Below the pieces are notes generated by a model that was given only the letters and a program-made list of their open reading frames with translations, did no database searches and had not been told where the DNA came from. From the NCBI GenBank assembly GCA_965204765.1, contig CBDBFG010000003.1, forward strand, positions 33,412-97,411: DNA of 64,000 nt, read 5' to 3'. A program made the translations under genes and the position numbers. Source of the stretch: Alphaproteobacteria bacterium. Lineage in GTDB: Bacteria > Pseudomonadota > Alphaproteobacteria > Caedimonadales > UBA9215. This document shows positions 2,178 to 43,017 of this stretch, piece after piece. Within the stretch, counting starts at the first letter, position 1. Each line of letters begins with the position of its first letter.

Positions 2178-3827
2178 CTAAGATGCAAAATACTTCTTAT
2201 TCACCACTACATTATATTTGCTACGCAAATAATTGTGGTATAATCCAACTATATCTGACTTTACCAAATTATTTAGAATATTCTTAAATTCTTTTGTCTC
2301 TTGATTATTGAGTTTCTGTGGATACTCCACATGAGCAACCTTGACGAATAAGAAACTATCCACGTCACCTTGATCAATAGAAGATAATTTATCTACTTTA
2401 CTTTTATTCTTCTTTAAACGCACAGGAACAACCGTATTACCATTTCTGTCCAGCATAAACAATCTCGATAAGCTAGAATGTGGAATATCATAAACCGCAG
2501 AATCTATTATCTCGTCACGCTTTGCCTTAAAACTAGTCAAACTCAATTTGTTTAAGGACGCAGTAGTAAGAAAGCTATTCTTATTGTTACTCAAATCATT
2601 CTGTAATCTAGTCACCATCTCTTTTACAGCAACCATTTTTTGTTTATGCACATATGCTTTTTTAACATTGTGCATTGCTTCATCAAAATTCATTTGTTTG
2701 GGCTTCACGACATCATGTACGTACACTATAAAAAACAAGTTCTTGCTTATTTTTGATTCTTCTGCAGTAGTTAGTTGCTCGGTTTCTGCTTGAAATGCGA
2801 ATTTAGTAATTTCTTGGTCAATCCCTTGCATTGAGGCCTCAAGAAGACTGATAGATTTAAAACTCTTAAAACGAAACTTATGCTCTTTGGCAATATCACT
2901 CAAGGTATCACCATCTTCAAACTTGCTGAAAATAATATTGGATTTTTCCGTAACAATTTCTAATCTTTTCTCTTGTAGCAGTTTATCCTTTATAATCTTT
3001 TTGGCTTCCGCACTAGAAAAGTTTTTATATTTCGTATTCTTCTCAATTTTATATATTGCGTCCACATCACGTGGCGAAACAGTAACTTTTGCTTTATTAA
3101 GATCCAATATTACCGCATCAAAGGTTCTACGCTCAGAATCAATGAATTGCCTTGTATTCTTGCCATAATACTCTCGCAATTCTTCTCTAGATGGTGATTT
3201 ATTATAGTTTAACTTGTTTGCATCTATCACCATTGCTTCAAAAGTACGCATTTGATTTTGCCATTGAAAAACTGGCTTCACAGCGATTGATGGCAACACT
3301 ATTTGTCCAGTTAAAGCAGATATAACCCTAGATCGCAAAATATCTCTTTTTAAGTAACTCACATAATCTTTTTCAGATACGAAACCCATATTGCGAATAA
3401 AACGATCAAAAACTTCCTTGGAAAAATCTCCCTTAGAATCCAAAAATATTGCTTGTTTCTTGATAAAATTCACTACATAGTCGTCACTGACTGCTATCTT
3501 AAATTGTTCGGCCTCTAGTGCTATCAAAGAATCATTGATTAATTTTTCCAGAACTTCACGATCAAACCCCATCTCTACGGCTTGCTTAAAAGAAATGTCC
3601 TGGCCTGTTTTTACTTTTAAACTCAATAATGAACGGCCAAGCTCTTTACGTAGTTCTTGAATTGAAATTTTTCTGTTACCGACATTGGCTACGGTCATAT
3701 CTCTTGACATACCAATCATCCGCAAACCGTCTTGCCCACCCCACAAAAACACAAAACTCAGCGCTAGTAACAAAAATAAAATCTTCGCAACAATACCGGA
3801 ACTAGCTTTACGTATTCTTTCAATCAT
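2178..3827 (-). CDS. ppiD: periplasmic chaperone / peptidyl-prolyl isomerase D-like (SurA N-terminal domain protein)
   Basis: 549 aa with an N-terminal membrane anchor (GIVAKILFLLLALSFVFLWG) and a long chaperone-like body, matching PpiD family architecture. Confidence 0.65.
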   Translation of the reverse strand: MIERIRKASSGIVAKILFLLLALSFVFLWGGQDGLRMIGMSRDMTVANVGNRKISIQELRKELGRSLLSLKVKTGQDISFKQAVEMGFDREVLEKLINDSLIALEAEQFKIAVSDDYVVNFIKKQAIFLDSKGDFSKEVFDRFIRNMGFVSEKDYVSYLKRDILRSRVISALTGQIVLPSIAVKPVFQWQNQMRTFEAMVIDANKLNYNKSPSREELREYYGKNTRQFIDSERRTFDAVILDLNKAKVTVSPRDVDAIYKIEKNTKYKNFSSAEAKKIIKDKLLQEKRLEIVTEKSNIIFSKFEDGDTLSDIAKEHKFRFKSFKSISLLEASMQGIDQEITKFAFQAETEQLTTAEESKISKNLFFIVYVHDVVKPKQMNFDEAMHNVKKAYVHKQKMVAVKEMVTRLQNDLSNNKNSFLTTASLNKLSLTSFKAKRDEIIDSAVYDIPHSSLSRLFMLDRNGNTVVPVRLKKNKSKVDKLSSIDQGDVDSFLFVKVAHVEYPQKLNNQETKEFKNILNNLVKSDIVGLYHNYLRSKYNVVVNKKYFAS

Positions 3828-3965
3828 CTTTTAATTCTATTTTACTTTTCCACAACGAATTTACGTGATTGCCCTGCACATAACACGATTGACTAACATA
3901 TCGATTGATACTACCCTAAAACTTGATTTATAACAAAGACTATTTACAAAAAAAGAGTAAAATTT

Positions 3966-4763
3966 ATGTTGCAGCTCATAGATAGCCATTGCCACCTTAA
4001 TTACTACGCCTCCGCTCAAGAACTTGATACAGTTATAAAAAGGGCACAAACCAACGGAATAAAACATATAATTAATATCTGCACCAAACTAGACGAAGCA
4101 GACAAAGTAACAGATATAGCGGACCAATATAATGACATCTTTGCTAGTGTAGGCATTCACCCCAATGAAGCCAAAACAGCATCAGCCGAGCAAACACCGG
4201 AACAATTATATGAATGGTTGATACAGTGGTGCAAACACCAAAAAGTAATTGCTATTGGGGAAACAGGATTAGACTATCATTACCAATATAGTGCACGTAC
4301 TACGCAACTAGAATCATTTAAAATCCATATTCAAGCTGCAAAAACAACTGGTTTGCCACTGGTAATTCATACAAGATCTGCTGCGGAAGACACTATCAAC
4401 ACATTAAAACAAGAACAAGGCAATATCACCGGTGTTATTCATTGCTTTAGCGAGACTAAATGGCTAGCTGACAATGCAATGGACTTGGGTTTTTATATCT
4501 CGATACCTGGAATTATAACTTTTAAGAAGTCTGATGATTTGCGCAAAATAGTTGCAACTATTCCATTAGAAAGACTATTACTTGAAACAGACGCCCCTTT
4601 TCTTGCCCCTGTTCCATATCGTGGCAAACAAAATGAACCAGCATATATGATCAAAACTGCAGAACTGCTAGCAGAGTTAAAAAATGTATCCTTAACAGAT
4701 ATTGCAAAAGTTACGACTGCAAATTGCCAGAAACTTTTTCAAAAAGGTAAATTTTATGAATAA
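3966..4763 (+). CDS. tatD: TatD-family metal-dependent DNase/hydrolase
   Basis: 265 aa with the N-terminal LIDSHCHLN motif, [20 protein letters not shown] and [11 protein letters not shown] motifs. Confidence 0.85.
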
Positions 4764-9976: not shown

Positions 9977-10420
9977 TCACGTGCAATTATATAATTTTTG
10001 TACCCTGCGCGCATGCTGCCCGGCTAGAAATTGCGTATTTAAGAACTTTTCCATTATATTTAAAGCTTGATCTGCGCTTAACATGCGACTTCCTAAACAT
10101 AAAACATTACAATCATTATGTGATCTTGATAATTGCACAAGTTTTATATCCTCGGAATATACCAATACTCCACGAATCCAATCGAATCTGTTTACTGCTA
10201 TACTCATTCCTACCCCAGAACCACAAATCAATATACCGCAAGAATCATCTTGGTTTTTCATTTTATTGGCTAAAGCATATGAGTAATCAGGATAATCAAC
10301 AGATTCCACACTCTCACAACCGCAATCCGTTATAGTATAATTTAATCCTTGCAAGTAATTGATTAATATTAATTTTAACTCATAACCTGCATGATCATTA
10401 GCAATATAAATTTTCTTCAT
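9977..10420 (-). CDS. rpiB: ribose-5-phosphate isomerase B
   Basis: MKKIYIANDHAGYELK...GILICGSGVGMSIAVNR...HNDCNVLCLG are RpiB/LacAB motifs. The start is taken at the internal Met (10420), not the ORF-track 10438. Confidence 0.9.
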   Translation of the reverse strand: MKKIYIANDHAGYELKLILINYLQGLNYTITDCGCESVESVDYPDYSYALANKMKNQDDSCGILICGSGVGMSIAVNRFDWIRGVLVYSEDIKLVQLSRSHNDCNVLCLGSRMLSADQALNIMEKFLNTQFLAGQHARRVQKLYNCT

Positions 10421-10619
10421 CCAATTTCGCCCTATCATTTAATAGCACTATAACGCAATACTGGTAATTACAAAATCCTAATATATTACGACAAACAAGC
10501 ACAATAGATGAAGTAAGAAACCAGTAATTGTTAACAGGATACGGAACAGCTCTAAGTCCCAATTTAACAGCGTATAGCAGAAAATAAATAGACAAGATAA
10601 CCCAATAGAGTGTAAAAAA

Positions 10620-10696
10620 TGGCGGGAGTGACGGGACTCGAACCCGCGACCTCTGGCGTGACAGGCAAGCGCTCTAACCAGCTGAGCTACACCCCC
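10620..10696 (-). tRNA. tRNA-Asp (anticodon GTC)
   Basis: Reverse complement reads GGGGGTGTAGCTCAGCTGGTTAGAGCGCTTGCCTGTCACGCCAGAGGTCGCGGGTTCGAGTCCCGTCACTCCCGCCA. It has a 7 bp acceptor stem, a D arm, the anticodon loop CTGTCAC, a TTCGAGT T-loop and an encoded CCA. There is one T/C mismatch in the anticodon stem. Confidence 0.9.
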
Positions 10697-13595: not shown

Positions 13596-14174
13596 ATGAT
13601 TTATAGTTATAGCATAATCTCAACAGGTGAATATCAGAGTAACAAATTACAATTATCTGCATTTAAAAAAGTAGGGGTTGAAAAAATATTCTCTGAAAAA
13701 ACGTCTGGTGGAAAATGGGAAAGACCAGAATTTCATAAACTGATCAATAAAATCAGAAAAGGTGACACAATTGTGGTTTGGAAGTTGGATAGATTATTGG
13801 GATCATCAAAAGACTTGTTAGTAATAATTGATAAAATTAACAAGAAAGAAGCTGGATTCAAAAGTGTAACTGAAAATATTGATACTACCACTACATCAGG
13901 ATGTATGATGATGCAAATGGTTGATGCTTTCAGAGTTTGAACGTGCAATGGTCAGAGAGCGTACAAAAGCTGGTTTGGATGCTACCAGGGCTGAAGAAAG
14001 AATTGGGAGACCAAAACCCAAGCTCAAGCCAGATCAAAAAAATACGTTGTGGATAATGTGATGACAGGACGAAAATCAGGTGCTGATATGGCTAGGATAT
14101 ATGATGTAAGTGAAGCTACAATTTCACGCACTGTAGCTCAATATAGAATACTACAAGAAAAAATGGAAGTTTAG
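13596..14174 (+). pseudogene. serine recombinase, Hin/Gin/resolvase family DNA invertase, frameshifted
   Basis: Frame 0 gives MIYSYSIISTGEYQ...GDTIVVWKLDRLLGSSKDLL...GFKSVTENIDTTTTSG...MVDAF and stops at 13940. Homology continues in frame +1 (SEFERAMVRERTKAGLDATRAEERIGRPKPKLKPDQ), then returns to frame 0 after the A7 run at 14036-14042 (KKYVVDNVMTGRKSGADMARIYDVSEATISRTVAQYR, an HTH_7-like tail) and ends at TAG 14172-14174. The total is 192 codons, as in Hin/Gin. Confidence 0.85.
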
Positions 14175-14203
14175 ATACCTTGATACGATTTAACCCAATA
14201 ATG
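14164..14203 (-). repeat. right inverted repeat (IR-R) of the invertase cassette
   Basis: Partner of 12999-13036. It overlaps the last three codons and the stop of the recombinase pseudogene. Confidence 0.75.
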
Positions 14204-14239
14204 GCTTTTATTAATGACAGAAATTAATCTTAACTTTAC

Positions 14240-16111
14240 TCGGGATAGGGGGACCCTCACGGGTTTTCCCTCCCACACCACCTGCCATACGGGTCCGTAG
14301 CAAGGCGGTTCAATTTAGTTAAATGCTTTCATTGTTGATAATTTTGGTACTCCAAGTTTATCAAAATAATTTATGCCCATAGCTATTTTAGTTCCAGTAG
14401 TGTCACTAATTCTCCAAGGACCCTTACTTGATATTGCAGTTCTATATGCAGTTCTCAAATCGACACCTAGTTTAATAAGATTTTTCATGCGACGTCTATA
14501 TGTTTTCCATTGTTTCCATTGGACACATCGCAGTCTGTGTCTTATCCATTTGTCTAAGATCTTTAATACAGAGCGAGTTTCACAAATTCCAAAATATGCG
14601 TACCATCCATGTAGATATTGAGATAGAGTTTTAATTCTCTTCTCCATACCTATACTCCAGTTTCTGCTGGTAATTTTCTTTACCTCTTGCTTGAACTTTT
14701 GTATTGCTTTTGGTGATATACCTATATTAGATATTTCTGGTCTTCTAACTAGGCAAAAACCTAAAAATGATCTTTTCCTTGATGATGCAACCGCACTTTT
14801 CTCCTGATTTACTCGGAGCTTAAGTTTTTGCATTATAAACTTATTTATACTTTTCATTACTCTATTTCCAGAACGTTCACTTTTGACGTATATATTGCTA
14901 TCATCAGCGAATCTGCAAAATTTATGACCTCTGTCTTCCAATTCTTTATCAAATTCATCTAGGATAATATTTGAAAGAAAAGGTGAGAGCGGACCACCTT
15001 GTTGCACTCCTTCTTTAGAATATTGCTCAACTCCATTTTTCATAATTCCACTTTTAAGATAAGCCCGTATAAGTTTTAATAGTCTTTGATCTTTTATGTT
15101 TTTCGCCAATTTACTCATCAATCGATCATGATTAATGAAATCGAAGAATTTTTCGAGATCAATGTCTACCACGGTGCTATATCCTTGTCGCACATATTCT
15201 TTAGCTTTTAATATAGCCTGATGTGCGGATTTACCAGGACGAAATCCATAACTATTTTCTGAAAACAGCGGATCCCATTTCTGTTGCAAAATTTGAAGAA
15301 TGGCTTGTTGTATAAGTCTATCTATAGTGCATGGAATAGATAATTTACGCACACCTTTGCCATTAGGTTTAGGTATTTCAATTAGTTTTATTCCTTTCGG
15401 TTTGTATGCACCGTTTAGAAGAGAAGATTTTATAGTTAGCCAGTGTAATTTTAAGAATTCTGGAAGTTCATTGACAGTAATATTATCTATCCCTGCGCTT
15501 CCTTTGTTCTTACACACCTTTCTATAGGCAATTATAAGATTATTTCTAGAGCATATTTCCTCCATTATCCTGTCATTAAACATTGGCTTTTCGTTATGTT
15601 GTTCAGCTGTTGATAAATCAGCACTCGAGTCAGCTACTTCAGGCTTCACCTTCAGCTCATATCCCAAGTTCTTATTCAAGTTTGACTGCCTTTTCATATT
15701 ATCAACATTTCTTCAACTACTACTTAGCTTTCTAGATTGTTCAGGCCTTCGGACACCGTGTCCTACTATGCCATCTGCGGACTTCTGTATAGCATTACAA
15801 AACCTCCCGATTTTGCTAGTTTGTTTTCACAAAACATCCATACAGATCTCCCGTGGTAAGCACTATAACTTTCTGTACACAACTGCTGAATTTACGCTTT
15901 GAGTTCTTGATGGATATGGACTTCGCAATCACAAGCTTGCTCTTCCAACTCTAACGCCTCATATTCAGTTTCTGTTCGTCAGCTCATACTTTTGTTTCAC
16001 ACTTCCTTCAGACAAGACCTCACGATATTGCCCTTGTGCTTCCCTAACCTTCAGCTCCATCAGCTTGGTAAGAGGACTTTCACCTCTCTAGTAATAGTGC
16101 ATGCACGGCAC
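14240..16111 (-). mobile_element. bacterial class C (IIC) group II intron, ~1.87 kb; boundaries approximate (+/- a few nt)
   Basis: The RT/maturase ORF is flanked by ribozyme sequence. The 5' end on the minus strand reads GTGCCGTGCATGCAC...GAGAGGTGAAAGTCCTC...TCTGAAGGAAGTG...GAATATGAGGCG. Just after the ORF stop comes the domain V-like hairpin TTGAACCGCCTTGCTACGGACCCGTATGGCAGGTGGTGTG, with a CGC triad and a 2 nt 3' bulge. A GTGA-tetraloop hairpin with a bulged A (14246) follows as the domain VI candidate. An 11 bp stem-loop plus T-run lies in the 5' exon. Confidence 0.85.
14315..15697 (-). CDS. group II intron reverse transcriptase/maturase (no endonuclease domain)
   Basis: 460 aa with RT motifs: GSAGIDNITV, RKLSIPCTIDRLIQQA, YGFRPGKSAHQA, VVDIDLEKFFDFINHD, QGGPLSPFLSNIILDEFDKEL, FCRFADDSNIYV. 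The maturase X domain has the RHRLRCVQWKQWKT region and a short C-terminal tail ending YFDKLGVPKL. Confidence 0.95.
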   Translation of the reverse strand: MKRQSNLNKNLGYELKVKPEVADSSADLSTAEQHNEKPMFNDRIMEEICSRNNLIIAYRKVCKNKGSAGIDNITVNELPEFLKLHWLTIKSSLLNGAYKPKGIKLIEIPKPNGKGVRKLSIPCTIDRLIQQAILQILQQKWDPLFSENSYGFRPGKSAHQAILKAKEYVRQGYSTVVDIDLEKFFDFINHDRLMSKLAKNIKDQRLLKLIRAYLKSGIMKNGVEQYSKEGVQQGGPLSPFLSNIILDEFDKELEDRGHKFCRFADDSNIYVKSERSGNRVMKSINKFIMQKLKLRVNQEKSAVASSRKRSFLGFCLVRRPEISNIGISPKAIQKFKQEVKKITSRNWSIGMEKRIKTLSQYLHGWYAYFGICETRSVLKILDKWIRHRLRCVQWKQWKTYRRRMKNLIKLGVDLRTAYRTAISSKGPWRISDTTGTKIAMGINYFDKLGVPKLSTMKAFN

Positions 16112-16808
16112 GCTTATAAAAAATAGCAATATAAAACATATTGCTATTATTCCAGATGGAAATCGTAGGTGGGCAGAGTCAAAAGGACTTAATCGTCAAG
16201 AAGGTCATCATGCAATGGTACGCTCAATCCCTTCATTATTTGCTTTTTTAATCGATAGTGGGGTTCATACTGTGACTTTTTGGTTAGCCAGCCCAGAAAA
16301 TTTTATAAAAAGAGATGATAGTGAAATAGCTCATCTTTATGAATATTTTGAAATTTTAATTGATAAGCTATTAAGTGGATACTCTAATACTAAGATTTGT
16401 CACTTAGGAGAGAAACACATTTTTCCCAAGAGATTCTTAAACAAGATACGTTTAGCGGAGCAAACCACTCAAAACTGTAACGGTAATATTATTAATTTGG
16501 CAATAAACTATTCTGCAAATCAAGAAATAATATGGATTGCAAATAAAATAAAGGATTCATATGTCTCAAATGAAAGTTGGTGTGAGCAAACTATAGAAAA
16601 ACTGTTATGTAAAGAAAACCGTGTTTACTCTCACATTGATATGATTATAAGAACTGGAAGAGAGAAACGTTTATCTGGTTTTATGAGTTGGTGGTCTTCA
16701 TACGCAGAGCTATTTTTTGTACAAAAATACTTTCCAGACTTTTCTTGCGATGATTTAAAAAATTGTATTTATGATTTTTCAAACAGAAACAAAAGGTTTG
16801 GTAAGTAG
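16101..16808 (+). CDS. divergent cis-prenyltransferase (undecaprenyl-diphosphate synthase family); the present start codon lies inside the intron terminus
   Basis: 235 aa with KHIAIIPDGNRRWA (canonical IIMDGNGRWA), LASPENF (FSxENW), NLAINYS and IIRTGREKRLSGFMSWWSSYAELFF..YFPDF (IRTGGExRxSNFLLWQ..YxE..F....WPDF). Isolated from the usual frr-uppS-cdsA context. Confidence 0.8.
   Translation: MHGTLIKNSNIKHIAIIPDGNRRWAESKGLNRQEGHHAMVRSIPSLFAFLIDSGVHTVTFWLASPENFIKRDDSEIAHLYEYFEILIDKLLSGYSNTKICHLGEKHIFPKRFLNKIRLAEQTTQNCNGNIINLAINYSANQEIIWIANKIKDSYVSNESWCEQTIEKLLCKENRVYSHIDMIIRTGREKRLSGFMSWWSSYAELFFVQKYFPDFSCDDLKNCIYDFSNRNKRFGK
16122..16148 (-). terminator. terminator-like stem-loop (11 bp stem, 5 nt loop, T-run on the minus strand); candidate IIC intron homing motif
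   Basis: The minus strand reads AATAGCAATAT-GTTTT-ATATTGCTATT followed by TTTTATAAGC and then the intron 5' end GTGCC. The same bases encode NSNIKHIAI of the uppS-like ORF on the plus strand. Confidence 0.6.
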
Positions 16809-18276: not shown

Positions 18277-20463
18277 TTATCCTTCCAAATGAAATACTAA
18301 CCTTACCACTGCAGACCAATTACGCTCAGTTTCCAAATTCATACGCCCGCCATGATCTTCTATAATTTTTTTCACAATTGCTAAGCCCAAACCTGTACCT
18401 TTGGGCTTAGTAGTCACATAAGGCTCGGCAAGCTGTTCTGTATTTTGCGGGAAACCAGAACCCGTATCTTTTACCAATATTACTAGCTCTTTATTACCCA
18501 AAGTGACTGATATACTAATTTTTCCGTCCTTACCCTGTTCATAGATAGAGTCTATAGAATTCTGCATAATATTTGTTAATACTTGACTTATTTGTGCAGC
18601 ATCACACACAAAATGCTGGTGACTAGGACCTCTGAAAACAAAATTAATATCAGGATTAGAAGTTTTATATTGCTCGATATGTTGCTTGATTATTTTAATA
18701 ATATCTTCTTCTTGCATATTAGGATCTGGCATTTTAGCAAAATCAGAAAATGATTTCACCATATCCCCTATATGGGATACTTGCCTGACTATTGTCGCCA
18801 CACAATTATCAAATTTTTCCGCATCTTTTGTGATTTGTGTCGCATATTTTCTTTGTAGTTGTTCAGCAGATAACTGTATCGGGGTCAATGGATTGCGTAT
18901 TTCATGTGCAATACGTCTTGCCACATCCGCCCACGCGGCTTTACGTTGTGCATATAACAAATGCGTAATATTCACAAAACTAATAATATAGCCCTGACAC
19001 AAACTATGATCCTGACTATCTCTGATTATTTGCAAATGTACATGCAGGGTATGCATTTCTTTCTTTCTAATAATTTTAATTTGCCTAGAAAAACTTTTAT
19101 TATCCTGTTCAAACTGATTTAATAATTCTTCTACTTCTGGAAAACAACTAGAAATCTTTTTGCCGATATAGCTATCTATATCGGTAATGTTTAATAAATC
19201 AGAGGCGTAATCGTTGATAATTTGTACTATATTTTGCCTATCAATACTAATTACTCCGGATCGCACACTAGATAAAATATCCTCTATAAATCTTCGACGT
19301 GAATCTATCGATGCACTAGCCTGAACCAACTTTTCCTTTTGTTTTTCCAATTTTGTCGTCATTCTATTGAATGAATTCATCAATAACGATATTTCATCTT
19401 TATCAATACCGGGATTGACTCGTATGGACAAATCACCTTTGATTACTTTTTCTGAGGCTGAAATTAAACTACCAATTGGTTTAGCAATTCTTCCAGCAAA
19501 AACCAATGCTACCCACACAGCAATTAATAATAAAACAAAGGCTATAGCTATAAAAATCAACCCCAAGTACAACTGAAATCTAGTCTGATTTTTATCGACC
19601 TCGTTATAGTTACTCACGGCATTTTGGACATCTTTTATTCTTTTTGATACCGCAGGATCAACAATACGACCGACCAATAAATACGCATCAATATCAGGAG
19701 CTATTTTGATTAATGCACGCACACGATCACCAGCATCATTGGTTTTGATTACCACCTCATTTTTTGAATTCTTTAACTCAAGAGCAGAAAACACTTCAAA
19801 CTCCAAGGTAAAACTTAATTTAGAACGGGCTATCACCTCGGGTACACCATTAAAAACTAAAGCTTCATCGATATTGCGCAGCCCAATCTGCGTATCTATT
19901 AGATTATTAAACCTTGCTTGATTATGTTGTAATATCTTGTAATTGTGGGCAATCTCTTGTGCCATCGCGTATACATTTGCGCTAATTACTTTTTTATGTT
20001 CCGCCAAATAAGATTGGGCTACTTTAGTTGATTCTGATAATGCCGTGCTAACGCTGCTACTGAACCATTTTTGTATCCCCATATTAAAGATAATCGCTGA
20101 AAAAATCATCATTAATATAGCGGGCGTAATAGTTAACAAGCTAAAAATCATCACAAATCTTGTGTGCAGCTTTGCCGCTTGATTACCAGATTTTCTATCC
20201 GCCCAAGCAATAGAAAGCTTACGCACAATGGCTAACGTTAGTAACATTAATATTAATAAATCGATATTTAAAATTATCGTAAGATGATTAGAGTTAATAT
20301 TATTTAGTTCTGATTGTGCGAACACATAATAGGTTACACAAGACGCGATACTGGATAAAAATATCAACACATACATTAACTTTTTTCTAAAACTTTTATG
20401 TTCAAAAGTTCCTTTTAAAGCGCGAATATTTTTGCTGTATGCCCCCCAAAAATGGTAACTCAT
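18277..20463 (-). CDS. ntrY: sensor histidine kinase NtrY
   Basis: 728 aa with N-terminal TM segments, HAMP, PAS, the H-box RRIAHEIRNPLTPIQLSAEQL, the N box NIMQNSIDS and the G boxes DTGSGF / GTGLGLAIVKKIIEDHGG. Confidence 0.9.
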   Translation of the reverse strand: MSYHFWGAYSKNIRALKGTFEHKSFRKKLMYVLIFLSSIASCVTYYVFAQSELNNINSNHLTIILNIDLLILMLLTLAIVRKLSIAWADRKSGNQAAKLHTRFVMIFSLLTITPAILMMIFSAIIFNMGIQKWFSSSVSTALSESTKVAQSYLAEHKKVISANVYAMAQEIAHNYKILQHNQARFNNLIDTQIGLRNIDEALVFNGVPEVIARSKLSFTLEFEVFSALELKNSKNEVVIKTNDAGDRVRALIKIAPDIDAYLLVGRIVDPAVSKRIKDVQNAVSNYNEVDKNQTRFQLYLGLIFIAIAFVLLLIAVWVALVFAGRIAKPIGSLISASEKVIKGDLSIRVNPGIDKDEISLLMNSFNRMTTKLEKQKEKLVQASASIDSRRRFIEDILSSVRSGVISIDRQNIVQIINDYASDLLNITDIDSYIGKKISSCFPEVEELLNQFEQDNKSFSRQIKIIRKKEMHTLHVHLQIIRDSQDHSLCQGYIISFVNITHLLYAQRKAAWADVARRIAHEIRNPLTPIQLSAEQLQRKYATQITKDAEKFDNCVATIVRQVSHIGDMVKSFSDFAKMPDPNMQEEDIIKIIKQHIEQYKTSNPDINFVFRGPSHQHFVCDAAQISQVLTNIMQNSIDSIYEQGKDGKISISVTLGNKELVILVKDTGSGFPQNTEQLAEPYVTTKPKGTGLGLAIVKKIIEDHGGRMNLETERNWSAVVRLVFHLEG

Positions 20464-23561: not shown

Positions 23562-24200
23562 TTACTTAACAATGAATAATGCCCCCAACCCTTTAACTGC
23601 ATGACTCATACCCATTGCTAATAAAATAAATGCAAATAATATAGTTAAAATTAATGCACCTGATTTTCCTAGTATTTTATCTATGCTACTGGAATAAAAA
23701 CAACATATAGCAACCATAGCACAAGTTACTATTAAACCAATTGCCGCTGCTGCGTACTCTAATAAATCAAACCTAAAATTATTTTCATTGATATAAGTCG
23801 AAAGAGTCAAAATCGTAGAAATAGCACCACCACCAATCGTTAAAGGTACTGTAAGAGGATAAACTATGGAGTGTTCCAAGCTATCTTCCGAAGAATCTTG
23901 TGGTTGATCATTGGATAACATTTTCCACCCTGAAACAAAAATTAATATACCACCAACTACTCTAACCTCGGCAATACTAATCCCAAAAAATAACAACAAT
24001 GGTTTACCAAGCAATAAAATAATTATACAAATCAAAGTAGAATAAAAAAACAAACTCCAAGATACTTGCTTATATTGCTCTTTATTATAACTCTTATTAG
24101 CAAACATTGCGTTAAACGCAATCGCTATTAAAATTGGATTTAGAATTGGAATTATGTCCTTTAAGGTCATAGAAAACACATGTATAAATTGCGCAGTCAT
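23562..24200 (-). CDS. MarC / UPF0056 (NAAT) family integral membrane protein
   Basis: 212 aa with about 6 TM segments and MarC-like size and topology (N-terminal IPILNPILIAIAF...). Confidence 0.65.
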   Translation of the reverse strand: MTAQFIHVFSMTLKDIIPILNPILIAIAFNAMFANKSYNKEQYKQVSWSLFFYSTLICIIILLLGKPLLLFFGISIAEVRVVGGILIFVSGWKMLSNDQPQDSSEDSLEHSIVYPLTVPLTIGGGAISTILTLSTYINENNFRFDLLEYAAAAIGLIVTCAMVAICCFYSSSIDKILGKSGALILTILFAFILLAMGMSHAVKGLGALFIVK

Positions 24201-24429
24201 TATTCTTTCCTCTTATCATGTTGCACTCAGATTGTACCGCATTAATAGAAGAATTACATTAAAAACTAGTGTTATTATGTTTGAACGTGAAACATAGCTA
24301 CACTATAAAACGTTGAAATTGTGGCATAAGTATGTTTATTTATAGTGTTTTCGTTTGAATTAATACTAATTTGATCAATACGATTACAAACACTATATAT
24401 TGTATATATTACTGGAATAGGTTGAATAA

Positions 24430-24897
24430 ATGACAAAAGAATCTGGATCGTTTAACGAAAAACTCATAAGAAAACTAGCAAATATTCTCAATGAAACCGG
24501 CCTAACTGAAATTGAATACGAAAAAGAACAGTGCAGAATAAAAGTAGCCAAACAACAGCACCATCACAATGTTACATCCGTTCAACCTGTTGTCTCTACT
24601 GCAACCGAACAAAATGTAGTAAACCCATCACCCACTCCACAACCAACAACACAAAACAATCTTCATAACGCAATTAAAGCACCAATGGTGGGCAATATTT
24701 ATCTATCCCCAGCACCAAATGAAAACAAGTTTGTGCAATTAGGTGATGCGGTTAAATCGGGCGATACCCTACTTATTATCGAATCAATGAAAGTAATGAA
24801 TCAAATTAAGTCAGATAAAGATGGTATTGTAAAAGAAATTTTAGTCAATGATGCTGAGCCAGTAGAATTTGATCAACCATTAATAGTCATTGAATAA
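24430..24897 (+). CDS. accB: acetyl-CoA carboxylase biotin carboxyl carrier protein
   Basis: 155 aa with a Pro/Thr/Gln-rich linker and the biotinylation motif IESMKVMNQI near the C-terminus. Confidence 0.9.
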   Translation: MTKESGSFNEKLIRKLANILNETGLTEIEYEKEQCRIKVAKQQHHHNVTSVQPVVSTATEQNVVNPSPTPQPTTQNNLHNAIKAPMVGNIYLSPAPNENKFVQLGDAVKSGDTLLIIESMKVMNQIKSDKDGIVKEILVNDAEPVEFDQPLIVIE

Positions 24898-24927
24898 GTA
24901 ACAGGCTAATTTGCAAGAGATTAGAAT

Positions 24928-26277
24928 ATGATAAAAAAAGTACTAATAGCTAATAGGGGTGAAATCGCTCTGCGTATTCATCGTGCTTGTCATGAAATAG
25001 GAATCAAGACCGTTGCGATACATTCTACCGCTGATGCTAAATCTATGCATGTCAGACTAGCCGATGAAAGTGTATGTATCGGCCCACCTAACTCAAAAAA
25101 TAGTTATCTTAATATGCAGGCTATCCTATCCGCAGCCAGCGTTTCTGGTGCGGACGCTATACATCCTGGTTACGGTTTTTTGTCAGAGAATCCTGTATTT
25201 GCCAATATGGTCGAAGAACATGGTTTTATTTTTATTGGCCCATCTGCACAACACATGCAAATTATGGGTGATAAAATTACCGCAAAAAACAAAATGATTG
25301 CACTAGGTATACCAGTAGTACCAGGATCAGATGGCTGTGTACAAAAAACCGATGATATCAACGAACTATGTGACAAGATAGGTTATCCTGTGTTGGTCAA
25401 AGCATCTGGTGGTGGTGGTGGTAAAGGTATGCAAATTGTACATACTCAAGACCAACTACCAAACGCTATTGCTATTGCCAAACAAGAAGCAGCAGCCAAT
25501 TTTAATAACGATGAAGTGTTTATTGAAAAATTTTTGCAAAAGCCGCGACACATTGAAATACAAGTATTGGCAGATAATTTTGGCAATGTTATTCATCTTG
25601 GAGAACGAGACTGTTCATTACAACGCAGACATCAAAAAGTTTGGGAAGAAGCCCCAAGCCCAGTCATTACTACCGAACAAAGAAATAAATTGGGTTCTCT
25701 GGTGGTAAGTGCCTGTCAAAAACTAGGTTATCGCGGTGCGGGTACGTTTGAATTTTTATACGAAGATGAACAATTCTTTTTTATTGAAATGAACACTAGA
25801 ATCCAAGTTGAACACCCGGTAACAGAAATGGTAACAGGAATAGACCTAGTACAAGAACAAATACGAATCGCCTGTGGCGAAAAATTACATTATACCCAAA
25901 ATGATATAAAACTAACAGGCCATGCTATTGAATGTCGGATCAATGCAGAGCACCCTGCTACTTTTGCCCCAAGCCCAGGTATGATCAAAGACTATCATAC
26001 ACCCGGGGGACCAGGGGTCAGAATAGATAGCGCCCTGTACAGTGGTTATACAATTTCACCACATTACGACAGCCTTATTGCTAAACTTATCGTACTTGGT
26101 AATGATCGGCAAGAATGCCTGCGCAGGCTAGGTAGATCCCTTGAAGAATACGTCATAGACGGAATCAACACCATTATTCCATTGCACCAAAAACTAGCCA
26201 AAGAACAAGATATCATTAGCGGTGAATACGATATTCACTGGTTAGAAAATTATCTGGACAATGACCATACAGAATAA
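24928..26277 (+). CDS. accC: acetyl-CoA carboxylase biotin carboxylase subunit
   Basis: KVLIANRGEIALRI, HPGYGFLSEN, GGGGKGM, ATP-grasp FIEMNTRIQVEHPVTE; 449 aa. Confidence 0.97.
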   Translation: MIKKVLIANRGEIALRIHRACHEIGIKTVAIHSTADAKSMHVRLADESVCIGPPNSKNSYLNMQAILSAASVSGADAIHPGYGFLSENPVFANMVEEHGFIFIGPSAQHMQIMGDKITAKNKMIALGIPVVPGSDGCVQKTDDINELCDKIGYPVLVKASGGGGGKGMQIVHTQDQLPNAIAIAKQEAAANFNNDEVFIEKFLQKPRHIEIQVLADNFGNVIHLGERDCSLQRRHQKVWEEAPSPVITTEQRNKLGSLVVSACQKLGYRGAGTFEFLYEDEQFFFIEMNTRIQVEHPVTEMVTGIDLVQEQIRIACGEKLHYTQNDIKLTGHAIECRINAEHPATFAPSPGMIKDYHTPGGPGVRIDSALYSGYTISPHYDSLIAKLIVLGNDRQECLRRLGRSLEEYVIDGINTIIPLHQKLAKEQDIISGEYDIHWLENYLDNDHTE

Positions 26278-27502
26278 ACAATTACTGCACTCTAAGATAC
26301 CTAAACGAAGTAATGCCATAGATTACTTACGTGGTGTAATGATTATGTTAGTAGTTCTGGATCATGCGATGCATGCTTATTCACCAAGTTTTAAAAATTT
26401 TTGGTTTATTCAGGATTTTGGCGGTAGCATAATCTTTGACATTTGGCATATGCATAATGATGCTATCATGATGATAATGTTATTTTTTATCTCGGGAATG
26501 TTTGTCATACCATCACTGCACCGCCATGGACTTAAGCAATTTGCATATAATAAATTTATACGATTATGTATACCTTTTATCTTTGGTATGGTACTAATAG
26601 TCCCACCGCAAAAATATGCTAAATACTTAATTAAAACCGAACACAATATTAGCTTACTAGATTATTGGCGTAACATATATTTCGTTGACGACCTAGCAGC
26701 AAGCGGTTTTTGGTTTTTATACTATCTGGTGCTATTAACCATAATGTTGGTATTGCTACATTATTATATCCCATCGATAATAAATTTGTTCACACGATAT
26801 GCTAATTTTATTATTAATCATCCTGGACAAGGAATCTGTAGTTTAATCGTACTATCATCTTGCACACTAATCATAAGTGATTTTCTATTGGGTGCGCATT
26901 GGTGGATAGGTGGATATAAAATATTCTATGTTAGAGGAGCAAGATTCGTACTAAAGGCGTTATTCTTTTTACTTGGTGCCGGATTTGCTATAACCAAAGC
27001 ACTCACCAATAATGAAGTACAACGTAGACTTGCGACAAAATGGCAACCCACATTAATGATATTCATTGTCGTATTAGCACTATATATCACTTACTCTTTA
27101 TATAACTTTTATGACGGAGCATATAATCTAGAAGTAAAAAGACATTTTTATTTTGGTGGTACTGTTGCTGATGTTTGGCCAATAATTACTACTTATAGCC
27201 TACCTGTAATAATCAGGAATATTTTATTAGCCATGGTAATATGCTGTGGAATACTGGCTTATTTTTCTTGTTTTTACAGATTCTTTAATCACAATATTAC
27301 TATTTTACAGTCATTCGCAATATGCTCGTATGGTATTTTTATCTTTCACGAACCTGTTGTTACCACCATACAATATTGGTTTTATATGCAAGATATTCAT
27401 GTCGGTATAAAATTTATCTGTACTGTATTGCCATCATTGTTTATTACATGGTACCTTGTGCACAAAATACGTACTCTGCCCCTTATTAGAAAGGTTTTAT
27501 AA
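26261..27502 (+). CDS. acyltransferase family 3 (membrane O-acyltransferase, OpgC/OafA-like)
   Basis: 413 aa with about 10 TM segments and the N-terminal motif AIDYLRGVMIMLVVLDHA typical of acyltransferase_3. Overlaps the accC stop by 17 nt. Confidence 0.75.
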   Translation: MTIQNKQLLHSKIPKRSNAIDYLRGVMIMLVVLDHAMHAYSPSFKNFWFIQDFGGSIIFDIWHMHNDAIMMIMLFFISGMFVIPSLHRHGLKQFAYNKFIRLCIPFIFGMVLIVPPQKYAKYLIKTEHNISLLDYWRNIYFVDDLAASGFWFLYYLVLLTIMLVLLHYYIPSIINLFTRYANFIINHPGQGICSLIVLSSCTLIISDFLLGAHWWIGGYKIFYVRGARFVLKALFFLLGAGFAITKALTNNEVQRRLATKWQPTLMIFIVVLALYITYSLYNFYDGAYNLEVKRHFYFGGTVADVWPIITTYSLPVIIRNILLAMVICCGILAYFSCFYRFFNHNITILQSFAICSYGIFIFHEPVVTTIQYWFYMQDIHVGIKFICTVLPSLFITWYLVHKIRTLPLIRKVL

Positions 27503-27504
27503 TA

Positions 27505-28857
27505 ATGAAAGTCGTAATTGTTGGCAGGCCAAATGTTGGTAAATCAACATTGTTTAACCGTTTGGTAGGAAAAAAAGCAGCCATAGTTGATAATATTTCT
27601 GGTGTAACCAGAGATTGGAAAGCATTGCCTGCTAACATAGCCGATTTGCACTTTGAAATTATTGATACTGCAGGCTTACTGGGTTTCGAAGAAAAAACTT
27701 TATCCCAACAAATTGCTACACAAACCCATAATATTATCGAAATCGCGGATATTATCCTTTTTGTCATCGATGGTATTAGTGGCATCGTCAGCAGCGATAT
27801 TACCCTGGCACGTGAAATAAACAAAAAACACGGTAATAAGGTTGTGTTACTGGCTAATAAATGCGAGAACCATAAAACTTTACATAATATTCACGAATGC
27901 CACCGCTTAGGCATGGGTGATGCTATACCTGTTTCTGCTGAACATGGTACGGGTATGGATTTGTTATATAATACTTTAAAAGCAACACAAACAAGATTAC
28001 AAATCACACCAATTGATACTGATAATGAAGACCTCAACCAGACAAAAGAGACCCTTGATATTGCAATAGTAGGTCGTCCTAATGCCGGCAAATCAACCTT
28101 AATCAATAAATTGATTAATGAGAATCGCTTATTAACCGGTGATACTCCTGGGGTTACCAGGGACTCTATTGCTATAAATTGGACATATAATGAACGCAAG
28201 ATTCGCTTAATAGATACCGCAGGCATGAGGAAAAAAGCCAAAATAGACCAAAGGCTGGAACGTTTATCGACCTCCGATACTATTAACTCAATCAAATATT
28301 CAGAAATTACTATTATTGTCGTAGATGCAACCATGCCTCTACAAAAACAAGATTTAACTATAGCTGAACATGTCATTAACGAAGGTAGAGGATTGGTGAT
28401 AGCCGTCAATAAATCTGATCTAAAACACGGCAACTGGTTAGTGGAAATACATAAAGAACTGCACTATATCCTACCCCAGGTAAAAAACATACCGTGCATT
28501 GCCATTTCCGCTATTCATAACAAAAACATTGATAAATTAATGCAAGCGGTATTTCAGATCGAAGAGTTATGGAACACCCGAATCTCAACCTCGGTGTTAA
28601 ATCAATGGCTGAATAATGTTATTAGCCATCACCCACCCCCTCTTGACAAAGGTAGCCGCATCAAAATAAAATACATGACACAAATCAAGACCAGACCACC
28701 TACTTTTGTATTATTTATTTCGAAGCCGGCAAAATTGCTTGATTCATATCTACGATACTTATTAAATAAATTACGTGCTGACTTTGACTTGCCTGGTGTC
28801 CCCATAAGGTTGCAAACCAGAAAAGGAAAAAACCCATATGATACGCAGCAAAAATGA
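27505..28857 (+). CDS. der: ribosome-associated GTPase Der (EngA), tandem GTPase domains + KH
   Basis: Two G domains (GRPNVGKSTLFN...DTAG; GRPNAGKSTLIN...DTAGMR...NKSD) and a C-terminal KH-like domain with PPTFVLF. Confidence 0.95.
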   Translation: MKVVIVGRPNVGKSTLFNRLVGKKAAIVDNISGVTRDWKALPANIADLHFEIIDTAGLLGFEEKTLSQQIATQTHNIIEIADIILFVIDGISGIVSSDITLAREINKKHGNKVVLLANKCENHKTLHNIHECHRLGMGDAIPVSAEHGTGMDLLYNTLKATQTRLQITPIDTDNEDLNQTKETLDIAIVGRPNAGKSTLINKLINENRLLTGDTPGVTRDSIAINWTYNERKIRLIDTAGMRKKAKIDQRLERLSTSDTINSIKYSEITIIVVDATMPLQKQDLTIAEHVINEGRGLVIAVNKSDLKHGNWLVEIHKELHYILPQVKNIPCIAISAIHNKNIDKLMQAVFQIEELWNTRISTSVLNQWLNNVISHHPPPLDKGSRIKIKYMTQIKTRPPTFVLFISKPAKLLDSYLRYLLNKLRADFDLPGVPIRLQTRKGKNPYDTQQK

Positions 28858-28961
28858 TCTGAGCTAGTGCACAATAGCGCTAAAGCAATGTATTGCCACC
28901 ATTAACTAATGATGACATGGCACACAAAAAGAAAAAATTACGAACAAGATTAGAGGATTAA

Positions 28962-29981
28962 ATGAAGTATAACATAGCAGTTGTTGGCGCAACGGGAAAT
29001 GTCGGACGAGAAATCTTAACTATCCTAGAAGAGCGTGAATTACCAATTAATAATATTTATGCTTTGGCCTCGGAGCAATCAATTGGTAAAGAAGTATCCT
29101 TTGGTGATGATAGAACTTTGCGTATTGATGCCGTTAAATATTTTGATTTTACCAAAGCAGATATTGCATTTTTCTGTGCTGGATCAAAAGTTTCAGCCGA
29201 ATACGCTCCTCAAGCCGCACAAGCAGGTACAATAGTAATCGACAAATCCTCGTACTTTAGAATGCATAAAGATGTAACGCTACTAGTACCGGAAGTAAAT
29301 GGGCATTTGTTGGAAAATAACTTAGCATCTAATATCATAGCTAGCCCTAATTGTGTAGCGATCCCTTTAAGTGCAGTTTTAGCGCCACTACATGCTGAAA
29401 ACCCCATTAAACGAGTAGTAGTGTCCACTTATCAATCGGTCTCTGGCGCGGGTAGAAAGGCCATGGATGAACTATTTAATCAAACCAAGAGTTCCTTTGT
29501 CCACCATGATAGTGACGCTAGCATAATGGCTAAAAAAATTGCCTTTAATGTTATACCTTGTATTGATACTGTGCAAGAATCAGGCTACACCGGAGAAGAA
29601 GAAAAAATAATAGCCGAAGTACAAAAAATAATAGACCCAACAATCGCGATAACCACCACTTGCGTTCGTGTTCCCGTATTCATTGGGCATTGTTTAGCAA
29701 TCAATATAGAATTTAGCAACCAAATTACTCCCCAAGAAATAAGATCTAGTTATAATATAGAACACGGAGTGGTAGTACTGGATAAACCAGAACAAGAACT
29801 ATACATTACACCAGAAGAAATAGCTGGTGAGGATATAGTAGCTGTCAGCCGTATCAGGCAAGACAAATCAACTAAGAATGGAATAGCAATGTGGGCTGCA
29901 TGCGATAACCTACGCAAAGGAGCAGCTTTAAATGCTGTACAAATTGCAGAAAAGATTATTGCTAGTAACAGGAATAATTAA
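28962..29981 (+). CDS. asd: aspartate-semialdehyde dehydrogenase
   Basis: VVGATGNVGRE N-terminus, active-site SPNCVAIPL, YQSVSGAG, and C-terminal DNLRKGAALNAVQIAE. Confidence 0.93.
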   Translation: MKYNIAVVGATGNVGREILTILEERELPINNIYALASEQSIGKEVSFGDDRTLRIDAVKYFDFTKADIAFFCAGSKVSAEYAPQAAQAGTIVIDKSSYFRMHKDVTLLVPEVNGHLLENNLASNIIASPNCVAIPLSAVLAPLHAENPIKRVVVSTYQSVSGAGRKAMDELFNQTKSSFVHHDSDASIMAKKIAFNVIPCIDTVQESGYTGEEEKIIAEVQKIIDPTIAITTTCVRVPVFIGHCLAINIEFSNQITPQEIRSSYNIEHGVVVLDKPEQELYITPEEIAGEDIVAVSRIRQDKSTKNGIAMWAACDNLRKGAALNAVQIAEKIIASNRNN

Positions 29982-30060
29982 ATTTTATTGTTATCTATCA
30001 TGGACGATATGCTACACTTTGATAATACACATTAAACGGAACATAAAGGTTGGGATAATT

Positions 30061-31644: not shown

Positions 31645-31674
31645 ACACTAGTTTAAAATTGCTACAGCATTATA

Positions 31675-42959: not shown

Positions 42960-43017
42960 TAACCATCCCCCATCTACTTGATTATACCTTAGAATTGTGT
43001 TACCACCAGTTTATATT

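What the first reader, a model, noticed from the sequence alone, without database searches (positions are those of the whole stretch)
14240..16148. Class C (IIC) group II intron sitting just after an 11 bp stem-loop, the hallmark IIC homing context
The ORF is an endonuclease-less RT/maturase whose RT-5 motif reads FADD instead of YADD. Only about 414 nt of ribozyme precede it and about 75 nt follow, a compact layout typical of IIC introns. Directly after the ORF stop the minus strand reads TTGAACCGCCTTGCTACGGACCCGTATGGCAGGTGGTGTG. From memory this closely parallels the domain V region of the Oceanobacillus iheyensis IIC intron (UUGAACCGCC...GGUGGUGUG), including the CGC catalytic triad that replaces AGC in class C. 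Upstream blocks (GAGAGGTGAAAGTCC, TCTGAAGGAAG, ATATGAGGC) also resemble that ribozyme. In the 5' exon the minus strand carries a perfect hairpin AATAGCAATAT-GTTTT-ATATTGCTATT, then TTTTATAAGC, then the intron 5' end GTGCC. Class C introns are known to home to sites just downstream of terminator-like stem-loops. My domain V fold has one bulged T and a non-GNRA loop (GACC), and the 5' pentamer is GTGCC rather than GUGYG, so ribozyme competence is uncertain.
Basis: partly seen in the sequence, partly recalled or inferred. Interest (0 to 1): 0.6.

Follow-up and report, generated by a model that had tools for sequence, protein, structure and literature searches.

The report
Class C intron splitting uppS antisense
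This is an intact but otherwise ordinary bacterial class C (IIC) group II intron that landed just after a DNA hairpin as such introns do; here the hairpin lies inside the start of an essential cell-wall gene (uppS), so the intron splits that gene on the opposite strand.

Summary
Window 14239..16113 (minus strand, 1875 nt) is a complete class C (IIC) group II intron. Rfam finds D1-D4. The 460-aa ORF is RT plus maturase with no endonuclease, and its best solved relatives are all IIC RTs. Rfam misses domains V/VI, but across 52 related copies the proposed pairs hold in 95% of cells with 11 compensatory pairs.

I move the 5' end by 2 nt. The intron starts GCGUG at 16113, not GUGCC at 16111. This register is fixed by 41 relatives and by EBS1-IBS1 covariation. 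The 3' end is G14239, fixed by gamma-gamma' covariation and EBS3-IBS3 pairing.

The 11-bp hairpin sits 8 nt upstream. Only 3 such hairpins occur in 64 kb, and most relatives show one too.

It lies in the antisense of uppS codons. Removing the intron restores an uppS ORF starting at ATG 14214. The annotated uppS start (ATG 16101) is the reverse complement of the intron's 5' end.

Verdict: a new member of a known kind, with modest interest.

The parts
16122..16148 (-). [quoted passage not shown] On the + strand the same bases encode UppS residues N-S-N-I-K-H-I-A-I.
   Evidence: One of only 3 perfect hairpins of 11 bp or more in 64 kb (expected 0.43).
16118..16121 (-). Spacer UUUU between the stem and IBS1.
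   Evidence: Spacer plus IBS1 is 8 nt, inside the published 3-11 nt range (PMC1702495).
16114..16117 (-). IBS1 (AUAA), the last 4 nt of the 5' exon.
   Evidence: It pairs with EBS1 UUGU. Across 41 copies 143/164 cells pair, against 76 in shuffles, with 0/5000 shuffles reaching the observed value.
14239..16113 (-). Complete class C (IIC) group II intron, 1875 nt, with 5' GCGUG and 3' GAG.
15861..16029 (-). Domain I core (Rfam group-II-D1D4-3). It includes the IIC-typical AGGAA motif at 16007-16003.
   Evidence: (132.4 bits, E=4.6e-27); motif definition from PMC1702495.
15925..15940 (-). EBS1 hairpin GCAA[GCUUGUGA]UUGC. EBS1 is UUGU at 15934-15931.
15892..15892 (-). EBS3 candidate: the A in the conserved motif CGUA-A-AU (coordination loop, intron position 222).
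   Evidence: It pairs with the first 3'-exon base in 22/25 copies, against 13/25 for the next exon base. The position is as in the E. rectale RNP (PMC10190682).
15744..15819 (-). Domains II-III (Rfam group-II-D1D4-1), including J2/3 with gamma = C15779.
   Evidence: (54.9 bits).
14315..15697 (-). Intron-encoded protein in domain IV: 460 aa, RT (RVT_1) plus maturase/X (GIIM), no endonuclease domain, active-site motif FADD.
14277..14309 (-). Domain V: lower helix carrying the CGC triad (with a G.U pair), one extra bulged U, a 2-nt 3' bulge (UG), a 4-bp upper helix and a GACC loop.
   Evidence: (helix 1: 99.5% of cells paired; compensatory changes at 2 pairs).
14242..14274 (-). Domain VI with the bulged branch-point A at 14246, 7 nt from the 3' end.
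   Evidence: (helix 2: 9 of 14 pairs show compensatory changes).
14239..14239 (-). gamma' (the last intron base, G), which pairs with gamma C15779.
   Evidence: gamma/gamma' across copies: A-U 24, C-G 4 (including the window), C-U 1.
14238..14238 (-). IBS3 (U), the first base of the 3' exon.
14214..14238 (+). Orphaned first 8 1/3 codons of the inferred pre-insertion uppS (ATGACAGAAATTAATCTTAACTTTA).
   Evidence: In-silico excision of 14239-16113 gives one ORF, MTEINLNFIIKNSNIKHIAIIPDGNRRWA....
16101..16808 (+). uppS as publicly annotated (235 aa, Prenyltransf). Its first 13 nt (ATGCACGGCACGC, 16101-16113) are the reverse complement of the intron's 5' end.
   Evidence: (P0001 is 100% identical).

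Best explanation
A mobile class C (IIC) group II intron lies on the minus strand at 14239-16113. It consists of a ribozyme plus an endonuclease-less RT/maturase.

It arrived as IIC introns do. The intron RNP recognised the shape of a single-stranded DNA stem-loop. Here that was an 11-bp hairpin that happens to form in the first codons of uppS. The RNP then paired EBS1 (UUGU) with IBS1 (AUAA) 4 nt after a UUUU spacer, and EBS3 (A) with IBS3 (U). It reverse-spliced between 16114 and 14238 and was copied into DNA, probably primed at a replication fork.

Because the hairpin is a palindrome inside a gene, the insertion is antisense to uppS and splits it within codon 9. The intron cannot be spliced out of the uppS mRNA.

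uppS therefore now either is dead or is translated from ATG 16101. That start codon is supplied by the reverse complement of the intron's conserved 5' end, and it swaps the dispensable N-terminus MTEINLNFI for MHGTL.

Shown: identity, class, boundaries, the pairings, the hairpin context, and that in-silico excision restores the ORF. Inferred: the insertion mechanism, current activity of the intron, and the expression state of uppS.
For: - Rfam D1-D4 hits.
- RVT_1 plus GIIM with no HNH domain.
- The best solved relatives are all IIC RTs; identity to GsI-IIC is 49.6%.
- Domains V/VI: 95.4% of cells paired against 40-48% when slid; 11 compensatory pairs; CGC triad invariant.
- AGGAA motif at 16007-16003.
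- 5' register: GUGUG 22, GCGUG 12, GUGCG 6 in the same columns. EBS1-IBS1 pairs in 143/164 cells against 76 shuffled, 0/5000.
- gamma-gamma' covaries: A-U 24, C-G 4 including the window.
- EBS3-IBS3 pairs in 22/25 copies.
- Two tandem junctions read GAU|GUGUG.
- The hairpin is rare: 3 in 64 kb against 0.43 expected. Most relatives show an upstream stem-loop, each with a different sequence.
- Excision restores an in-frame uppS starting at ATG 14214.
- UppS homologs have only 1-12 variable residues before the HIAIIPDGN motif.
- RT GC3 of 0.26 equals that of host genes, while the ribozyme parts stay GC-richer at 0.43 and 0.62. That fits long residence under constraint.
- The intron sense strand is the G-rich strand, which fits the reported preference for the lagging-strand template (PMC8919778).
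- Published mechanism and criteria: PMC1702495, PMC4424553, PMC10190682.
Against: - No formal phylogeny against a curated intron collection was run.
- Rfam's domain V/VI model does not detect this domain V.
- Several deviations from consensus are present: C at position 2 of the 5' pentamer, G as the last base, FADD, and an extra bulged U in domain V. All are shared with relatives, but none has been tested biochemically.
- Only one copy is on record for this genome, so recent mobility is unproven.
- The ancestral uppS start at 14214 has no close ortholog to confirm it; the nearest UppS is 40% identical. An open 8-codon stretch with an in-frame ATG could arise by chance at roughly 1 in 10 (my estimate).
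- No convincing promoter or SD precedes ATG 16101.
Confidence: 0.87

Rival explanations
1. It is a class C intron in form only: an immobile, splicing-dead relic stranded in this genome.
For: It is a single copy on record. It has non-consensus GCGUG, a terminal G, FADD and a bulged U in domain V. Rfam's domain V model misses it.
Against: The 460-codon ORF is intact in a 35% GC genome, and its GC3 is fully host-like, which implies long-term purifying selection. Every boundary pairing is intact at this site. Each deviation recurs in relatives that sit in different flanks, so those lineages have moved.
Confidence: 0.15
2. The element belongs to a neighbouring, non-C terminator-targeting RT lineage (the g6/U1/U2-type groups described near class C), not to class C proper.
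For: PMC8919778 reports that lineages adjacent to class C also insert after terminators. No curated phylogeny was run here.
Against: It is 49.6% identical to the class C GsI-IIC RT along the whole protein, with E=2.7e-134. The CGC triad, the AGGAA motif and the 4-bp IBS1 are all IIC hallmarks as listed in PMC1702495.
Confidence: 0.06
3. The intron's flanks are not its original target. A recombination or rearrangement, for example one linked to the adjacent resolvase remnant, juxtaposed the intron with uppS, and the hairpin proximity is secondary.
For: A twice-frameshifted resolvase pseudogene lies immediately next to the 3' exon. uppS lies between ntrX and that mobile-element debris.
Against: IBS1 (5' flank) and IBS3 (3' flank) both match this intron's own EBS1 and EBS3. 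Joining the two flanks gives a continuous uppS ORF. The hairpin spacing is canonical.
Confidence: 0.04

Closest known systems
Terminator-targeting bacterial class C (IIC) group II introns, e.g. B.h.I1 of Bacillus halodurans, O.i.I1 of Oceanobacillus iheyensis, GsI-IIC of Geobacillus stearothermophilus
   Same: It has a compact ribozyme (416 + 76 nt), a CGC triad in domain V and an AGGAA motif. IBS1 is 4 bp and IBS3 is 1 bp. The RT/maturase lacks an endonuclease domain. A stem-loop followed by a U-run sits a few nt upstream of the 5' splice site. The RT is 49.6% identical to GsI-IIC.
   Different: The stem-loop is not the terminator of a co-oriented upstream gene. It is a palindrome within the 5' coding region of uppS, read on the antisense strand, so a coding sequence is broken. 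That is contrary to the usual statement that IIC introns do not reside in ORFs (PMC1702495, PMC8919778). The 5' pentamer is GCGUG, the last base is G (with a compensating gamma C), the active-site motif is FADD, and the domain V loop is GACC. The resemblance to O.i.I1 RNA rests on memory only; I did not have that sequence to test.
E. rectale IIC intron RNP bound to its DNA hairpin target (PDB 7UIM; PMC10190682)
   Same: The target anatomy matches: a stem of about 12 bp (here 11), a short spacer, a 4-nt IBS1 and a 1-nt IBS3. EBS1 is at about position 180-183 and EBS3 about 40 nt later. The RT matches at E=1e-101.
   Different: No structure or biochemistry exists for this element. The AU-rich stem has only 2 G-C pairs.
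IIC-attC introns (S.ma.I2 and relatives) with outward promoters (Pout)
   Same: Both are class C introns lying antisense to the flanking gene. Expression of the gene beyond the intron's 5' end would need an outward-facing promoter on the complementary strand of domain I (PMC3001079).
   Different: I saw no integron or attC context here. The P1out-equivalent keeps the -35 (TTGCCC), but the -10 is poor (TCAGCT), and the promoter scan finds nothing there. Membership is not supported.

Membership tests
Class C (IIC) group II intron | The intron-encoded protein groups with class C RTs | tested here: met
   The best PDB matches are all IIC RTs: GsI-IIC at 2.7e-134 and 49.6% identity, and the E. rectale and R. 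intestinalis RTs at 1e-101 to 1e-74. IIA scores 1e-34 and IIB 2e-23. No formal tree with curated references was built.
Class C (IIC) group II intron | The IEP lacks an endonuclease domain and has RT plus X/maturase | tested here: met
   Only RVT_1 (7.9e-41) and GIIM (1.9e-20) are found. It aligns end to end with the En-less GsI-IIC RT.
Class C (IIC) group II intron | The domain V basal stem carries CGC in place of AGC | tested here: met
   The sequence ACCGCC...GGUGGU is present. The C-G-C columns, with G.U at the middle position, are invariant or nearly so in 52 copies. Criterion from PMC1702495.
Class C (IIC) group II intron | A conserved AGGAA motif in the epsilon' region of domain I | tested here: met
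   UCUGAAGGAAG is present with AGGAA at 16007-16003, aligned to the upper-case consensus of RF02001. Only sequence presence was checked, not the 11-nt bulge geometry.
Class C (IIC) group II intron | A short (3-4 bp) IBS1-EBS1 pairing | tested here: met
   EBS1 UUGU pairs with IBS1 AUAA. Covariation holds over 41 copies: 143/164 cells pair against 76 shuffled, 0/5000.
Class C (IIC) group II intron | No EBS2/IBS2 pairing | not tested
   I did not map domain Id in enough detail to show that an EBS2 loop is absent.
Class C (IIC) group II intron | A single-base EBS3-IBS3 pair from the coordination loop | tested here: met
   A15892 pairs with U14238. 22/25 copies pair, against 13/25 for the neighbouring exon base. 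Relatedness of the copies inflates this somewhat.
Class C (IIC) group II intron | A stem-loop a few nt (3-11) upstream of the insertion site | tested here: met
   An 11-bp stem ends 8 nt before the intron. The hairpin is rare in the window. Most of the 41 relatives fold into an upstream stem-loop.
Class C (IIC) group II intron | Typical location: intergenic, after the terminator of a co-oriented gene, not inside an ORF (a habit, not a strict definition) | tested here: not met
   The hairpin and the insertion point lie within uppS codons 9-20 on the opposite strand.
Group II intron (general) | Matches to curated covariance models | tested here: met
   RF02001 scores 132 bits and RF01998 scores 55 bits. 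The Rfam domain V/VI model gives no hit at E<=10, but domains V/VI are supported by my own covariation count.
Group II intron (general) | A bulged branch-point A in domain VI 7-8 nt from the 3' end, and a gamma-gamma' pair | tested here: met
   A14246 is unpaired between conserved pairs. gamma C15779 pairs with gamma' G14239, and the pair covaries across copies.
Group II intron (general) | Self-splicing and retromobility | not testable with these tools
   This needs RT-PCR, in vitro splicing and mobility assays.
IIC-attC intron lineage | An outward promoter P1out on the complementary strand of domain I | tested here: not met
   The -35 TTGCCC is present, but the -10 after 17 nt is TCAGCT. Nothing is reported by the promoter scan. 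The attC/integron context itself was not tested.

The most novel reading that the evidence does not exclude
The antisense insertion did not kill uppS. The reverse complement of the intron's conserved 5' end (GCGUGCCGUGCAU becomes AUGCACGGCACGC) now supplies the start codon and the first four residues of a still-functional UppS. On this reading a class C intron has been co-opted as the 5' end, and perhaps the promoter region, of an essential cell-wall gene. Because the family's 5' end nearly always contains ...GCAUG, any antisense insertion in the right frame would donate an ATG 13 nt from the junction.
Probability: 0.3. Interest if true: 0.45.

Novelty: new member of a known kind. Interest (0 to 1): 0.3.

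Why it matters
For intron biology this is one more class C intron, from a large family that is abundant in metagenomes (more than 8000 RT homologs at E<1e-50).

It is a clean natural example of shape-based targeting going off-target. A coding-sequence palindrome mimics a terminator hairpin, so an element usually described as harmless to genes splits an essential one.

It also flags an annotation artefact. The deposited uppS start codon lies inside the intron.

The family-wide comparison documents tolerated variants: GCGUG at the 5' end, a C-G gamma-gamma' pair, FADD, and a GACC loop in domain V. It also shows that Rfam's domain V model misses this lineage.

Tried and rejected
- Rfam at a permissive threshold over 14100-16300 found no domain V/VI hit. 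I used family covariation instead.
- Exact-protein look-ups of UppS, the RT and P0001 found no contig, so I could not retrieve the source contig, other copies or an empty site.
- The genome-collection scan gave only relatives at 56% identity or less, and not the source genome.
- My first reading took the 5' end as GUGCC with IBS1 = AAGC. I rejected it after 28 of 41 relatives showed canonical GUGUG/GUGCG two nt upstream in the same columns. The apparent extra pairing is only loop GC against intron G[U/C].
- My first EBS1 script sliced the loop one base off. I corrected it.
- The blind column scan for EBS3 returned columns confounded by phylogeny, such as a stem base next to EBS1. I replaced it with a targeted test of the coordination-loop base.
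- A Pout-like outward promoter is not supported.
- SD-motif analysis is uninformative, because only 14 of 33 long ORFs have one.
- The first hairpin scan used too small a distance limit and missed the target. I repeated it.
- Robart et al. 2007 (PMC1871835) is not held, so I cite it only through PMC8919778 and PMC4424553.
- The host could not be named. The best MutS hit is 60% identical and unnamed.
Full report
**What is there**

On the minus strand, Rfam finds group II intron domain I (RF02001, 16029-15861, 132 bits, E=4.6e-27) and domains II-III (RF01998, 15819-15744, 55 bits). Between them and the 3' block lies a 460-aa ORF (15697-14315). It has RVT_1 and GIIM domains and no HNH/endonuclease domain. 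There is only one copy in the window.

**Class**

Against all solved structures, the RT's best matches are the class C enzymes. GsI-IIC (6AR1) scores E=2.7e-134, aligns end to end and is 49.6% identical. The E. rectale IIC RNP protein (7UIM) scores 1e-101. The R. intestinalis and E. rectale RT fragments score about 1e-75. LtrA (IIA) scores 1e-34 and T.el4h (IIB) 2e-23.

The published IIC hallmarks (PMC1702495; PMC4424553) are:
- CGC instead of AGC in domain V
- a conserved AGGAA motif
- a 3-4 bp IBS1-EBS1 pairing
- EBS3 as in IIB introns
- no EBS2
- a terminator-like stem-loop 3-11 nt upstream
- an En-less IEP

I tested each of these except the absence of EBS2.

**Domains V and VI**

Rfam's domain V/VI model gives nothing here even at E<=10. 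That could have meant a defective or misplaced domain V. I collected relatives from genome and metagenome collections and aligned 52 non-redundant 3' segments.

The proposed structure has these parts:
- a lower helix carrying CGC with a G.U pair
- a 2-nt bulge on the 3' strand
- a 4-bp upper helix and a GACC loop
- a domain VI with a bulged A 7 nt from the end

This structure pairs in 95.4% of cells, against 40-48% when partners are slid by 1-3 columns. Eleven pairs show changes on both sides, and the covariation score is 0.285 against 0.09 in shuffles.

The GACC loop is nearly invariant in the family. In the window, domain V is 14309-14277, domain VI is 14274-14242, and the branch A is 14246.

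**5' boundary**

In 41 non-redundant copies the homologous columns read GUGUG (22), GCGUG (12), GUGCG (6) and GUAUG (1), starting two nt upstream. So the window intron begins GCGUG at 16113.

The EBS1 hairpin is GCAA[GCUUGUGA]UUGC. Its loop positions 3-6 pair with the four exon bases before this point in 143 of 164 cells. Shuffled exons give 76, and 0 of 5000 shuffles reach the observed value. Shifted registers collapse to background.

For the window, EBS1 UUGU pairs with IBS1 AUAA (16117-16114). The 12 GCGUG copies all sit in different flanks, so this variant lineage has been mobile.

**3' boundary**

Nearly all relatives end ...GAU, 7 nt after the branch A. Two tandem junctions read GAU|GUGUG. 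The window ends GAG.

The J2/3 base in GUC-N-GCAGA (gamma) is A where the last base is U (24 copies). It is C where the last base is G (4 copies, including the window). There is one exception. This is gamma-gamma' covariation, and it puts the last intron base at G14239.

The variable base of the conserved CGUA-N-AU motif lies about 40 nt after EBS1, which matches the position of EBS3 in the E. rectale RNP (PMC10190682). It pairs with the first 3'-exon base in 22 of 25 copies, against 13 of 25 for the next exon base. In the window this is A15892 with U14238.

The intron is therefore 14239-16113, 1875 nt, with 416 nt before and 76 nt after the ORF.

**Hairpin context**

The perfect 11-bp hairpin (16148-16122) is followed by UUUU, then IBS1 AUAA, then the intron. 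That is 8 nt from stem to splice site. The window has only three perfect hairpins of 11 bp or more with 3-8 nt loops, against 0.43 expected from Markov-shuffled sequence. Most of the 41 relatives fold into an upstream stem-loop, each with a different sequence. So the hairpin is target, not cargo.

This matches the structural picture of a roughly 12-bp DNA stem, a spacer, IBS1 and IBS3 held by the RNP. The + strand shows a GC skew of about -0.15 across most of the window. So the intron's sense strand is the G-rich, leading-type strand, that is, the template for lagging-strand synthesis. This agrees with the reported bias for class C introns (PMC8919778). It is an inference from skew alone.

The + strand ORF 16101-16808 is UppS (Prenyltransf, 3.3e-50). 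The hairpin bases encode its residues N-S-N-I-K-H-I-A-I, and the right arm falls in the conserved HIAIIPDGN motif. The intron is therefore antisense to uppS and sits at the gene's 5' edge.

Deleting 14239-16113 in silico joins ATGACAGAAATTAATCTTAACTTTA (14214-14238) to TTATAAAAAATAGC.... This yields one ORF, MTEINLNFIIKNSNIKHIAIIPDGNRRWA.... So the frame restoration independently fits the revised termini, although an open 8-codon leader with an ATG has roughly a 1 in 10 chance of arising anyway (my estimate).

The present, publicly annotated UppS (P0001, 235 aa, 100% identical) starts at ATG 16101. That ATG is the reverse complement of intron bases 11-13 (GCGUGCCGUGCAU). Homologs have only 1-12 variable residues before the conserved motif, and this UppS keeps all 40 columns that are invariant among 16 diverse sequences. 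So the N-terminal swap could be tolerated.

Whether the gene is expressed is unknown:
- No consensus promoter lies upstream of 16101.
- The position equivalent to the P1out promoter of IIC-attC introns has a good -35 but a poor -10.
- SD motifs are absent at both candidate starts, but also at 19 of 33 long ORFs in the window.

The literature states that IIC introns do not reside in or break ORFs. This copy is a physical exception, explained by a terminator-like palindrome inside a coding region.

**Is the intron alive?**

The ORF is intact. Its third-position GC (0.26) equals that of host genes (0.25-0.30). The two closest relatives are also AT-rich (0.31), while more distant ones reach 0.5-0.7. 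The ribozyme segments remain GC-richer at 0.43 and 0.62. This pattern fits long residence in AT-rich hosts under continuing constraint on both protein and RNA.

FADD is found in 5 of the 120 nearest RTs, including relatives at 65% (P0122) and 60% (P0126) identity. All exon-binding and gamma pairings are intact at this site.

Against activity: only one copy is on record, and nothing here has been tested biochemically. I put about 0.15 on a dead relic.

**Host and surroundings**

The window is an ordinary chromosome segment of an AT-rich (35% GC), flagellated alphaproteobacterium. It encodes MutS, UvrC, PgsA, FtsZ, NtrX/NtrY, HdaA, FlhA, FlbD, FliF, AccC, Der and Asd. The nearest MutS is 60% identical and unnamed. 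Named hits at about 50% are Alphaproteobacteria, Holosporales and Rhodospirillales.

A resolvase pseudogene with two frameshifts abuts the ancestral uppS start. Rearrangement is unlikely to explain the juxtaposition, because both flanks match the intron's own EBS1 and EBS3 and together restore the ORF.

**Verdict**

This is a new member of a known kind from a very large family (more than 8000 RT homologs at E<1e-50).

The modest interest lies in three points:
- the off-target, gene-splitting, antisense insertion into uppS
- the intron-derived start codon in the deposited annotation
- the documented tolerated variants, and Rfam's blind spot for this domain V

Noticed in passing
window 13596-14188 (+): A serine recombinase/resolvase (PF00239, 8e-25) is broken by two frameshifts. 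The N-terminal domain is in frame 0, the middle in frame 1, and the HTH tail back in frame 0. This mobile-element remnant ends about 25 nt before the inferred ancestral uppS start.
   Followed up: partly
window 16101-16113 (+): The public annotation of UppS (P0001, 235 aa) uses a start codon that lies inside the intron, on the antisense of its 5' end. The first four residues (MHGT) are intron-derived.
   Followed up: yes
window 43011-43153 (+): A TPP riboswitch (Rfam RF00059, 54.8 bits, just above the gathering score) lies immediately upstream of, and overlaps the start of, a thiB-like thiamine ABC transporter binding protein (43145-44071).
   Followed up: partly
window 10623-10696 (-): A tRNA gene (Rfam RF00005, 64.8 bits) lies between ftsZ and the ORF at 9977-10438. 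I did not determine its anticodon.
   Followed up: no
L030:~1777, L036:~93, L048:~1800: These are head-to-tail junctions of two related introns: ...GAU|GUGUG in L030 and L036, and GAU-U-GUGUG in L048. The upstream copy's 3' end does not match the downstream copy's EBS1. These may be tandem insertions behind the domain VI hairpin, intron circles or assembly artefacts.
   Followed up: partly
L002:1248-1680 and 2584-4444: A truncated 5' intron fragment (starting GCCUG, diverging after about 180 nt) lies 1.3 kb upstream of a full copy. Each sits behind a near-identical hairpin (GAGCCTTTGGCTCGA).
   Followed up: no
L017 (closest relative, 66% RT identity): This is the only copy with a gamma-gamma' mismatch (gamma C but last base U). 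It may be a transitional state between the A-U and C-G forms.
   Followed up: no
window 18381-18410 and 31675-31700: These are the other two perfect 11-bp hairpins in the window, and neither carries an intron. I did not check whether a matching IBS1 (AUAA-like) follows them.
   Followed up: no
window 16101-16808 (+): This UppS is unusually isolated. The next-best homolog is only 40% identical, and the named top hits are candidate-phyla-radiation bacteria (Roizmanbacteria, Microgenomates). The gene sits between ntrX and a resolvase remnant. It might be a horizontally acquired or second copy; no other uppS exists in the window.
   Followed up: partly
window 1-64000: The + strand GC skew is about -0.15 from 1 to 48000 but about 0 at 24001-32000 and 56001-64000. 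I used it only to infer the replication strand and did not examine it further.
   Followed up: no
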